Shown piece after piece: positions 23,551 through 24,352 of a stretch of DNA of 39,612 nt. Both the position numbers and the translations under genes were made by a program. The number at the start of each line of letters is the position of its first letter. The stretch's first letter is position 1. This DNA comes from a virus (Duplodnaviria > Heunggongvirae > Uroviricota > Caudoviricetes). The stretch lies in the IMG/VR virus record IMGVR_UViG_3300022758_000169. One strand, given 5' to 3'. The notes beneath the pieces were generated by a model. That model was not told where the DNA came from, did no database searches, and saw only the letters and a list, made by a program, of their open reading frames with translations.

Positions 23551-24352
23551 CCCACACCCCTTCTATCCAGTCAGTGTTATTCCAGTCAAGCTTATCGCTT
23601 TTCCCGGCGTTTTTTGATTTTCCCCTGATATGATTTACGTGCCTGGCGAATTTTTGTTCCCACTGAACCTGCGTGAACACTTTGCCCTCAGCCATCCAGT
23701 AATCCCGGAATGCAGCAAGTTCAGCAGGTGTAAATTCCGGTTCCGGCAGGGCCGTTCCCCACAGCGCAGCACGCCGTCGAAAATCCGGCGACGGATGCCA
23801 GCCATCGGTCATCGGAAATTTCCCGATGGGTTCACTCAGGCCATCCAGAAATTCAGGTTCAGCCACCTGCAACGGCATACCGTTCGCTTCACTGGTCGGA
23901 GCACCCTCGCGCACGTGCGCTATGTGTGGGGTTTTATATATATCTTCCTCTTCCTCTTCCTCTGGTAACTCCTTTTGTAACGCTGTTGGCGTTACTTTTT
24001 GCGTTACTCGTTTTCGATGCTCTGCCACTCTTCTATTCGTAAGTGCACGTTTTTTCGATGATTCTCCATTGTGTCGCTCAAAGTTTGGAAGAATTAGTTT
24101 GCCGTCATGATAAGCAAGCCATCCGACGCTAATGAGGGCGTCAGCAAATCCTGTAATAAAAGCGAGTCTATCAAGTACTCCTTTTGTAACGCTGCCAGCG
24201 TTACCGTCTATTGTTTGCTGGTCAGCCCATGCCCATATACGAACCAGCTTTCCAAGAACAGCATCTGGATCAATACCCAGAATTTCTGCTATCTGAAAAA
24301 TTTCAGGTTTATCAGGAGTGATAACTTCAACCTTAATCCAGCTGCTTGCCAT
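23522..24352 (-). CDS. replisome organiser with DnaT-like C-terminal domain
   Basis: C-terminus IGKFPMTDGWHPSPDFRRRAALWGTALPEPEFTPAELAAFRDYWMAEGKVFTQVQWEQKFARH closely resembles recalled E. coli DnaT; SD AGAGGGGAAA. Confidence 0.7.
   Translation of the reverse strand: MASSWIKVEVITPDKPEIFQIAEILGIDPDAVLGKLVRIWAWADQQTIDGNAGSVTKGVLDRLAFITGFADALISVGWLAYHDGKLILPNFERHNGESSKKRALTNRRVAEHRKRVTQKVTPTALQKELPEEEEEEDIYKTPHIAHVREGAPTSEANGMPLQVAEPEFLDGLSEPIGKFPMTDGWHPSPDFRRRAALWGTALPEPEFTPAELAAFRDYWMAEGKVFTQVQWEQKFARHVNHIRGKSKNAGKSDKLDWNNTDWIEGVWDEINSRTSQ

What the first reader, a model, noticed from the sequence alone, without database searches (positions are those of the whole stretch)
23971..24207. Repeated palindromes inside the replisome-organiser gene as candidate origin iterons
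GTAACGC-N5-GCGTTAC occurs at 23977..23995 and 24186..24204, each preceded by the identical ACTCCTTTT, with an extra GCGTTAC half-site at 24001..24007. These lie within the coding sequence near the poly-Glu linker. Lambda-type origins sit inside the O gene in the same way.
Basis: partly seen in the sequence, partly recalled or inferred. Interest (0 to 1): 0.5.

Follow-up and report, generated by a model that had tools for sequence, protein, structure and literature searches.

The report
Phage replication origin inside initiator gene
The repeated palindromes are real, are conserved as DNA rather than as protein in hundreds of related phages, and are most likely the binding sites of the phage's own replication initiator, forming a lambda-style origin embedded in that initiator's gene.

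Summary
GTAACGC-N5-GCGTTAC occurs exactly at 23977-23995 and 24186-24204. With flanking half-sites, the sites form two clusters of 7-bp half-sites at a 12-bp period. These are the only such arrays in the 39.6-kb window (4 pairs against 0.04 expected).

The two palindromes are read in different frames, so they are not a peptide repeat. In 42 close relatives the half-sites are invariant (0-0.07 bit per position). The 5-nt spacer of the linker-proximal site shows 13 variants, and synonymous sites elsewhere average 1.0 bit.

Across 194 distinct genes of this N-domain superfamily (no Pfam model), 136 carry the same F-F-R-R array. The half-site is lineage-specific (GTAACGC, GTCCGC, GTAGACG, GTGGCGC and others). 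In 109 of 128 cases the array ends 1 nt before a 21-29-nt homopurine tract, which here is the "poly-Glu" tract.

A natural N-domain swap (K-12 Rac YdaU) replaces the repeats with different ones. Lambda has the same layout: iterons, then an 18-nt purine run, then the mosaic junction.

Verdict: a lambda-type origin in a new initiator family. Binding and firing were not tested.

The parts
23522..24352 (-). Replication initiator gene (276 aa; ATG at 24352). It has an N-terminal putative origin-binding domain, a linker, and a C-terminal DnaT-like / lambda-O-like domain.
   Evidence: ORF list. Pfam DnaT PF17948 at aa 179-249, E 6.5e-19. phrog_2509 'replication initiation protein', E 2e-129. Homologues start MASSWIK.
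24186..24204 (.). Cluster A: a perfect 19-bp palindrome GTAACGC-TGCCA-GCGTTAC (gene nt 149-167, codons 50-56, G-N-A-G-S-V-T). It lies in a predicted surface loop of the N-domain.
   Evidence: Synonymous-codon entropy is 0-0.3 bit at codons 50-56, against 0.6-2.4 elsewhere. The loop spans residues 47-56 in the AF2 model. Relatives insert exactly 12 bp, one extra half-site unit, at this point.
24177..24185 (.). A-tract plus GGAGT flank of cluster A (AAAAGGAGT on the coding strand). It is part of the 28-nt direct repeat shared with cluster B.
23965..24007 (.). Cluster B: four half-sites at a 12-bp period. In coding orientation they read F GTAACGC (24001-24007), F GTAACGC (23989-23995), R GCGTTAC (23977-23983) and a degenerate R GAGTTAC (23965-23971). 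The spacers are AAAAA, CAACA and AAAAG. The cluster covers codons 116-130, in the predicted disordered linker.
   Evidence: Half-site entropy is 0-0.065 bit per position, against 1.28 in the central spacer (13 variants) among 42 close relatives. pLDDT is below 50 for residues 119-137.
23943..23963 (.). 21-nt homopurine (coding strand) / homopyrimidine tract, corresponding to the 'poly-Glu' codons. It starts 1 nt after the last half-site and is the candidate DNA-unwinding or helicase-entry element.
   Evidence: It is the longest homopurine/homopyrimidine run in the window. In 109 of 128 relatives the array ends exactly 1 nt before a 21-29-nt purine run. The tract encodes REEKRRED (all Arg = AGA) in most relatives but PEEEEEED here, so the purine DNA is conserved and the peptide is not.
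23932..23943 (.). A+T-only stretch TTTTATATATAT next to the purine tract. The mosaic breakpoints between the N-domain and C-domain modules fall here.
   Evidence: The 30-mer at 23932-23962 is the least stable inside the gene and ranks in the top 1.2% of the window. BLAST breakpoints lie at query 407-422 and 413-420, which is window ~23928-23943.
23606..23818 (-). Coding region for the DnaT-like C-terminal domain (aa 179-249). The tail beyond it resembles the lambda O C-terminus.
   Evidence: NCBIfam DnaT, E 8.8e-27, below cut-off. BLASTP against lambda O gives E 0.001 for KLDWNNTDWIEGV vs KLDLTNTDWIYGV.
22774..23550 (-). Lambda P-like helicase loader gene immediately downstream of the initiator gene, overlapping it.
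   Evidence: Pfam PF06992, E 1.7e-55. phrog_109 'P-like helicase loader'.

Best explanation
The palindromes are binding sites for the N-terminal (probably winged-helix) domain of the protein whose gene contains them. Together with the adjacent homopurine/A+T tract they form the phage's replication origin, built on the lambda plan.

Proposed mechanism:
- Initiator subunits occupy the four 7-bp half-sites of cluster B (F-F-R-R, 12-bp period, A-tract spacers) and the auxiliary palindrome of cluster A, 209 bp upstream.
- Protein-protein contacts bend or loop the DNA, as in the lambda O-some.
- This destabilises the neighbouring 21-nt homopurine tract and TATATATA.
- The C-terminal DnaT-like / lambda-O-like domain then brings in the P-like loader with host DnaB.

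Shown here: the sites exist, they are unique in the genome, they are under strong DNA-level selection independent of reading frame, they change in concert with the N-domain lineage, and they keep a fixed position relative to a conserved purine tract.

Inferred: that the N-domain is the binder, that unwinding occurs at the purine/AT tract, and that replication starts here.
For: (1) The arrays are unique. They are the only paired half-sites in 39.6 kb, 4 against 0.04 expected.

(2) Frame independence. Site A is read in frame 1 and site B in frame 0 in the window. In the Rac-like clade site B is in frame 1 and encodes a different peptide.

(3) Synonymous constraint. Codon entropy is about 0 at codons 50-56 and 129-130, against 0.6-2.4 bits at other conserved codons in 69 genes. 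Half-sites show 0-0.065 bit per position, against 1.28 in the spacer and 1.01 at third positions elsewhere.

(4) Specificity co-variation. Among 194 distinct genes, 136 have an F-F-R-R array scoring at least 17 of 21, while the shuffled maximum is 16. Half-sites are lineage-specific (GTAACGC 55, GTCCGCA 57, GTAGACG 7, GTGGCGC 5, and others). The same variant is reused in the upstream auxiliary cluster of the same gene.

(5) A natural domain swap. K-12 Rac YdaU keeps the C-domain (83% identity) but has a DUF1376 N-domain. It has no GTAACGC and carries GATGTTCAA repeats instead.

(6) Only the N-domain stays linked to the sites. The downstream partner varies: P-like, DnaC-like, DnaB, primase-helicase or none.

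(7) The purine tract is the longest in the window and abuts the array at a fixed 1-nt gap in 109 of 128 relatives. All its Arg codons are AGA. It is also the local stability minimum.

(8) Lambda, fetched for comparison, shows iterons, then an 18-nt purine run on the coding strand, then annotated recombination junctions. The published lambda model matches (PMC6022878).

Against: No binding or replication data exist for this family in the literature I could search.

The layout differs from lambda. There are two clusters 209 bp apart, rather than four contiguous 18-bp iterons.

The purine/AT tract is only moderately unstable. Intergenic promoter regions at 24935-25064 are less stable.

GC skew gives no independent origin signal, because it tracks transcription direction.

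A charged linker peptide would by itself favour purine codons (Glu and Lys), so part of the tract's purine content could be protein-driven.
Confidence: 0.75

Rival explanations
1. The sites are bound by the initiator but act in control rather than as the origin. Possible roles are autoregulatory roadblocks to transcription of the replication operon, titration or handcuffing sites, or incompatibility determinants. Replication would start elsewhere.
For: The sites lie inside the transcribed operon. There are two separated clusters, which is reminiscent of looping or handcuffing control. No direct origin mapping exists. Less stable A+T regions lie nearby at 24935-25064.
Against: No other array of these half-sites exists anywhere in the window that could serve as the 'real' origin. 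The fixed 1-nt junction to a conserved homopurine tract across distant phages is what an unwinding element predicts and is not needed for a roadblock. The layout is identical to the experimentally defined lambda origin (PMC6022878).
Confidence: 0.12
2. The sites are recognised by some other protein, from the host or from another phage gene. Alternatively, the conserved sequences are 'linker' homology that promotes modular recombination between N- and C-domain cassettes.
For: Mosaic breakpoints map at 23928-23943, right beside the conserved purine tract. That tract is nearly identical across very different phages, so it could serve as recombination homology.
Against: Half-site sequences change with the N-domain lineage and across hosts (Escherichia, Salmonella, Xanthomonas, Ralstonia, Pseudomonas, Vibrio), so a conserved host factor is unlikely. 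No other neighbouring gene is consistently linked: the upstream genes are a Cys-rich ORF, cII-like genes or methylases, and the downstream partners also vary. Recombination homology does not explain 7-bp units at a 12-bp period in F-F-R-R order, or the variable spacers.
Confidence: 0.06
3. The palindromes act as nucleic-acid hairpins. They could be an intrinsic terminator for antisense (+ strand) transcription, an mRNA structure that pauses ribosomes between domains, or a cruciform.
For: The consensus scan flags 23977-23995 plus TTTTT as terminator-like on the + strand. Lambda has an antisense oop RNA near the start of O (PMC6022878). Concerted changes of both arms would also preserve a hairpin.
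Against: Site A has no T-run. Half-sites are conserved in direct orientation too (F-F and R-R, up to F-F-F-R-R), which a hairpin does not need. The stems never show compensatory drift within a clade, and the sequence itself is fixed. There is no Rfam match at E <= 1.
Confidence: 0.04
4. The repeat is a chance occurrence, or a by-product of a repeated peptide motif.
For: Most relatives do encode N-A-x-S-V-T twice.
Against: The frames differ in the window. Synonymous positions are frozen. The chance expectation is 1.5e-4 per window. The peptide follows the DNA motif when the motif changes; for example, V-D-G-R-V-D-G is encoded by GTAGACG repeats in Ralstonia phage Raharianne.
Confidence: 0.01

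Closest known systems
Bacteriophage lambda ori-lambda / O protein / P protein module
   Same: The origin lies inside the initiator gene, at the boundary between the DNA-binding N-domain and the loader-binding C-domain. The binding sites are dyad-symmetric and joined by A-runs. They are followed on the coding strand by a purine-only A+T-rich run (18 nt in lambda, 21 nt here) and then by the hybrid-phage recombination junction. The C-terminal tail is similar to lambda O, and the downstream gene is a true lambda P homologue.
   Different: The N-domain is unrelated in sequence. It has no PF04492 hit, and hhalign against lambda O gives probability 0.2%. Lambda has four contiguous 18-bp iterons. This module has a 4-half-site array (7 bp, 12-bp period, F-F-R-R) plus a separate palindrome 209 bp upstream.
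Rac prophage replication region (ydaU-ydaV; oriJ) of E. coli K-12
   Same: The gene order is the same: repressor, cro/cII-like genes, initiator, loader. The C-terminal domain type is the one found in many relatives of the window's gene. A 'Rac' variant from E. coli 442/2 carries the same N-domain and the same GTAACGC palindromes.
   Different: The K-12 YdaU N-domain is DUF1376, not this family. It has no GTAACGC sites and carries GATGTTCAA repeats instead. The classical oriJ is therefore a different specificity type. I found no fine mapping of oriJ. Published 'oriJ' PCR primers fall in ydaV.
Iteron-type plasmid origins with winged-helix Rep initiators (pPS10, F, R6K, pSK41-type)
   Different: Plasmid iterons are direct repeats of 17-22 bp that lie outside the rep gene. 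Here the sites are 7-bp half-sites in mixed orientation, embedded in the coding sequence. No sequence homology was detected.
E. coli DnaT (primosomal protein I)
   Same: The C-terminal domain matches the DnaT DNA-binding domain (PF17948, E 6.5e-19). GenBank relatives are annotated 'primosomal protein I'.
   Different: The match covers only aa 172-252 and scores far below the NCBIfam DnaT equivalog cut-off (93.9 against 201 bits). The protein is a phage origin initiator analogue, not a restart primosome factor.

Membership tests
Lambda-type (lambdoid) origin embedded in the initiator gene | The origin sequences lie within the initiator ORF, between the N-terminal DNA-binding domain and the C-terminal loader-binding domain. 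| tested here: met
   Cluster B covers codons 116-130 of 276. The DnaT-like domain spans aa 179-249. The module breakpoint is at 23928-23943. The AF2 model is disordered at residues 119-137.
Lambda-type (lambdoid) origin embedded in the initiator gene | Multiple repeated dyad-symmetric initiator-binding sites (four 18-bp iterons in lambda). | tested here: met
   There are two perfect 19-bp palindromes plus two flanking half-sites, six half-sites in all. Their number and arrangement differ from lambda: a 12-bp period and two clusters.
Lambda-type (lambdoid) origin embedded in the initiator gene | An adjacent A+T-rich region with purine strand asymmetry, which unwinds. | tested here: inconclusive
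   A 21-nt homopurine run plus TATATATA lies 1 nt from the array. It is the longest such run in the window and the local stability minimum, ranking in the top 1.2%. Actual unwinding was not testable.
Lambda-type (lambdoid) origin embedded in the initiator gene | The initiator binds the repeats specifically. | not testable with these tools
   Only indirect evidence is available: half-site type co-varies with N-domain lineage, and a natural N-domain swap changes the repeats.
Lambda-type (lambdoid) origin embedded in the initiator gene | Replication initiates at this site. | not testable with these tools
   No experimental data were found. GC skew is uninformative.
Lambda-type (lambdoid) origin embedded in the initiator gene | A partner helicase loader of the lambda P type is encoded immediately downstream. 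| tested here: met
   PF06992, E 1.7e-55, for the 22774-23550 product.
Lambda O protein family (Pfam PF04492 Phage_rep_O N-domain) | The N-terminal domain is homologous to lambda O. | tested here: not met
   There is no PF04492 hit even at E <= 10. BLASTP aligns only the C-terminal tail. hhalign gives probability 0.2%. Lambda O itself hits PF04492 at 5.7e-36.
DUF1376 / K-12 YdaU initiator family | The N-terminal domain matches PF07120. | tested here: not met
   There is no hit. hhalign gives probability 0.2%. K-12 YdaU hits PF07120 at 2.7e-26.
Rho-independent terminator (antisense strand) | A G+C-rich hairpin followed by a U-run, with pairing rather than sequence conserved. | tested here: not met
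   Only site B has a T-run. Sequence rather than pairing is frozen, and direct-repeat half-sites are equally conserved. There is no Rfam match.

The most novel reading that the evidence does not exclude
The window holds one member of a large, apparently undescribed superfamily of phage replication modules. It includes Salmonella epsilon15, Xanthomonas CP2, Ralstonia Raharianne, Pseudomonas phiPSA1 and PAN70, Rac-like prophages and many uncultured contigs.

In this superfamily a Pfam-less N-domain recognises lineage-specific 7-bp half-sites. These are arranged F-F-R-R at a 12-bp period and abut a near-universal (GAGAA)n homopurine element. The whole origin is overprinted on the initiator's own coding sequence. 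Conserved 'protein motifs' such as G-N-A-x-S-V-T and R-E-E-K-R-R-E would then be dictated by the cis-element rather than by protein function.

At least six to eight natural specificity variants exist. That would give a ready-made system for reading an initiator-origin recognition code and for asking what the invariant purine tract does, for example strand-specific helicase entry or binding by the DnaT-like domain.
Probability: 0.5. Interest if true: 0.6.

Novelty: new member of a known kind. Interest (0 to 1): 0.45.

Why it matters
It gives a precise, testable origin for Uetakevirus-type and Rac-like temperate phages. These include relatives of epsilon15 and phiV10 and prophages of pathogenic E. 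coli, whose replication proteins are currently annotated only as 'primosomal protein I' or 'hypothetical'.

It also shows that the lambda design is reused by an unrelated DNA-binding domain across phages of many proteobacterial hosts. That design is binding sites, then a purine tract, then the module junction, all inside the initiator gene.

The co-varying half-sites provide natural specificity swaps for studying initiator-origin recognition and replicon incompatibility. Finally, they warn that some 'conserved peptide motifs' in these proteins are really DNA signals.

Tried and rejected
- **Literature.** Searches for oriJ, ydaU, the motif strings, epsilon15 with origin or iterons, and the purine tract found no description of this origin. 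The Potrykus 2000 oriJ paper is not held.
- **oriJ link.** I first thought the window's type might equal the classical Rac oriJ. I rejected this because K-12 YdaU has a different N-domain and different repeats. Published 'oriJ' primers map inside ydaV and give no fine location.
- **GC skew.** It follows transcription direction and is uninformative.
- **C-domain clustering.** Single-linkage clustering of C-terminal domains lumped the families together and was not used. Only the partner-gene classes were kept.
- **RNA families.** The Rfam scan found no known RNA.
- **Peptide repeat and terminator readings.** Both were rejected on frame and conservation evidence.

Full report
**1. The observation**

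The sequence is as described. GTAACGC-TGTTG-GCGTTAC lies at 23977-23995 and GTAACGC-TGCCA-GCGTTAC at 24186-24204. Each is preceded by ACTCCTTTT, and there is a further GCGTTAC at 24001-24007. The repeat finder reports the 28-nt direct repeat at 209-bp spacing.

These are the only two exact matches to the 19-nt pattern in the window, against an expectation of 1.5e-4. I also counted pairs of half-sites with at most one mismatch in total and 11-13 bp spacing. There are four in the 39.6-kb window and all lie in this gene, against 0.04 +/- 0.2 in shuffles.

One of those pairs reveals a fourth, degenerate half-site (GTAACTC, 23965-23971). In coding orientation the linker-proximal cluster therefore reads GTAACGC-AAAAA-GTAACGC-CAACA-GCGTTAC-AAAAG-GAGTTAC. 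That is an F-F-R-R arrangement at a strict 12-bp period.

**2. The gene and its neighbours**

The sites lie in the minus-strand ORF 23522-24352 (276 aa).
- Its C-terminal part matches the DnaT DNA-binding domain (PF17948, E 6.5e-19).
- The whole protein matches phrog_2509, 'replication initiation protein'.
- The N-terminal ~125 aa match no Pfam or NCBIfam model.
- The overlapping downstream gene (22774-23550) is a lambda P homologue (PF06992, E 1.7e-55).
- The extreme C-terminus resembles that of lambda O (KLDWNNTDWIEGV vs KLDLTNTDWIYGV).

The window is ~98-99% identical here to Escherichia phages Phi05_2388 B, HEMP4, vB_EcoP_ZX5 and TL-2011b. The gene is mosaic. BLAST hits to its N-terminal half and to its C-terminal half come from different phages. 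The breakpoints fall at window ~23928-23943.

**3. Not a peptide repeat**

In the mRNA sense, site A is read GGT AAC GCT GGC AGC GTT ACA (G-N-A-G-S-V-T, frame 1). Site B is read GTA ACG CCA ACA GCG TTA CAA (V-T-P-T-A-L-Q, frame 0).

In Rac-like relatives the site-B palindrome is present but is read in frame 1 as G-N-A-A-S-V-T. The DNA word is what is kept, not the peptide.

**4. DNA-level conservation**

Eighty viral contigs and four GenBank phages carrying this N-domain gave 69 distinct genes.
- At conserved, degenerate codons, synonymous entropy is 0.6-2.4 bits almost everywhere in the N-domain.
- It collapses to 0-0.3 at codons 50-56 (site A) and to 0 at codons 129-130 (TTA CCA, part of a GCGTTAC half-site).

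Within the 42 distinct genes of the window's own clade:
- The four core half-sites have 0-0.065 bit per position.
- The central spacer of site B has 1.28 bits, with 13 different pentamers.
- Third codon positions elsewhere average 1.01 bits.

Invariant 7-mers flanking a free spacer are the classic footprint of a dimeric DNA-binding protein. Indels in cluster A are exactly 12 bp, one extra half-site. Cluster A falls in a predicted surface loop and cluster B in the predicted disordered linker. Both are places where the protein can tolerate a DNA-imposed sequence.

**5. Co-variation with the N-domain**

I collected distant relatives from three sources:
- The look-up of encoding contigs;
- named phages found by tblastn: Xanthomonas CP2, Salmonella epsilon15, Ralstonia Raharianne, Pseudomonas phiPSA1 and PAN70, and Vibrio 1.211.A;
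- two further viral scans.

This raised the set to 194 distinct genes. An F-F-R-R search just upstream of the linker scores at least 17 of 21 in 136 of them. Shuffled controls have a 95th percentile of 14 and a maximum of 16.

The inner half-site differs by lineage: GTAACGC (55 genes, 48-100% aa identity to the window), GTCCGCA (57) and GTCCGCT (5; both epsilon15/phiPSA1 type, 31-38%), GTAGACG (7), GTGGCGC (5), and single genes with GTTACGC, GTTGCGC and CTAACGG.

The same variant word is reused in an upstream auxiliary cluster of the same gene. That cluster is at nt 149-173 in the GTAACGC type, 142-178 in the GTAGACG type and 55-78 in the GTCCGC type.

Where the word changes, the encoded peptide changes with it. 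For example, V-D-G-R-V-D-G is encoded by GTAGACG repeats in Raharianne.

**6. A natural swap experiment**

E. coli K-12 Rac YdaU shares 83% identity over its C-terminal 119 aa with the 'Rac' YdaU of strain 442/2, which has the window's N-domain and its palindromes. Its own N-domain is DUF1376. The K-12 gene has no GTAACGC half-site in 7 kb. It carries five direct copies and one inverted copy of GATGTTCAA(ACA) at the equivalent places.

Conversely, the gene downstream of the initiator varies freely while the N-domain and its sites stay together. It can be lambda P-like, DnaC/IstB-like, DnaB helicase, primase-helicase or absent. Upstream genes also vary. The N-domain is therefore the only consistent candidate for the binder.

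**7. The 'poly-Glu' tract is a DNA element**

In 109 of 128 scored genes the array ends exactly 1 nt before the longest purine run, which is usually 21-29 nt.
- The commonest tract, AGAGAAGAGAAGAGAAGAGAAGA, encodes R-E-E-K-R-R-E-D, with every Arg as AGA.
- The window's AGAGGAAGAGGAAGAGGAAGA encodes P-E-E-E-E-E-E-D.

The peptides differ but the homopurine character is kept. In the window this 21-nt run (23943-23963) is the longest homopurine/homopyrimidine run in 39.6 kb. Together with the adjoining TTTTATATATAT it forms the least stable 30-mer inside the gene, in the top 1.2% of the window.

**8. Comparison with lambda**

I fetched lambda 38600-39700.
- Four annotated iterons (39034-39118) lie inside O.
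- They are followed on the coding strand by aaagaaaaaagaaaagat, 18 purines at 39139-39156.
- Two annotated recombination junctions follow at 39157 and 39165.

The published model has several parts. O dimers bind 18-bp inverted repeats joined by A-runs that bend the DNA. The adjacent high-AT region unwinds. The N-domain binds DNA, the C-domain binds P, and a flexible linker connects them (PMC6022878). The window reproduces each architectural element.

Two differences stand out:
- The N-domain shows no detectable sequence relationship to lambda O: no PF04492 hit, and hhalign probability 0.2%.
- The site grammar is different: 7-bp half-sites at a 12-bp period, with a second cluster 209 bp away.

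**9. Rivals**

- **Antisense terminator.** The consensus scan suggests one for site B. Site A lacks a T-run, direct-orientation half-sites are equally conserved, the sequence rather than the pairing is frozen, and Rfam finds nothing.
- **Host factor.** This is unlikely, because the word changes with the N-domain across hosts.
- **Recombination-linker homology.** This may explain why breakpoints sit at the purine tract. It does not explain the half-site grammar.
- **Control sites rather than the origin.** The sites could be initiator-binding control sites. This cannot be excluded computationally. It is disfavoured because no other array exists in the genome and because of the fixed junction to the purine tract.

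**10. Verdict**

This is most likely the phage's origin of replication, a lambda-type origin embedded in the gene of an initiator from a different, unmodelled N-domain family. I rate it a new member of a known kind.

Direct binding, unwinding and initiation remain to be shown. I found no prior description in the searchable literature, but older subscription papers could not be checked.

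Noticed in passing
window 24050-24055 (codons K100-K101 of the initiator): Both Lys codons are AAA in all 69 distinct relatives (synonymous entropy 0), although other Lys codons in the gene alternate freely between AAA and AAG. It could be an A-tract with a DNA-level role between the two clusters.
   Followed up: no
L101 3261-3578 (E. coli K-12 MG1655 Rac ydaU): K-12 YdaU has a DUF1376 N-domain and its own repeat family, GATGTTCAA(ACA), with five direct copies and one inverted copy. One copy lies ~211 bp upstream of the main cluster. These are probably the iterons of the classical oriJ, which I could not find mapped in the open literature.
   Followed up: partly
window 24625-24637, 24995-25007, 25013-25025: Three copies of TACCT-N4-(A/G)GGT(A/G) lie near the divergent early promoters, between the cro-like gene (24694-24885, minus strand) and the repressor-like gene (25083-25667, plus strand). 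They look like operators. A strong terminator-like hairpin lies at 24653-24672 on the minus strand.
   Followed up: no
window 24333-24545 (- strand): A 70-aa Cys-rich ORF (phrog_1081, unknown function) overlaps the initiator start codon by 20 nt. It is present in close relatives but not in distant ones, so it is not linked to the half-sites.
   Followed up: partly
window 23522-23570 (C-terminal tail of the initiator): The tail KLDWNNTDWIEGV resembles the lambda O C-terminus KLDLTNTDWIYGV. This suggests that the P-interaction end of lambda O is related to this DnaT-like domain.
   Followed up: partly
window: 5722, 8157, 8253, 11557, 12837, 17612, 25851, 33536, 37310, 38369: Ten isolated exact half-sites lie outside the initiator gene (15 in total, against 4.05 +/- 1.9 expected for the whole window). 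None is paired at 11-13 bp. The excess may reflect codon or oligonucleotide bias, or weak secondary sites.
   Followed up: partly
L221 and L222 (viral contigs, 24-26% aa identity to the window N-domain): Very distant relatives carry longer tandem arrays of CGTAACG-type units (four or more copies at a 12-13-nt period) before a purine tract. The array length evidently varies across the superfamily.
   Followed up: no
L095 (Salmonella phage epsilon15, AY150271.2 35179-35856): The curated epsilon15 record annotates repressor and IHF binding sites nearby but no origin. Its initiator gene carries TGTCCGC/GCGGACA arrays at gene nt 54-85 and 333-376, followed by the purine tract.
   Followed up: partly
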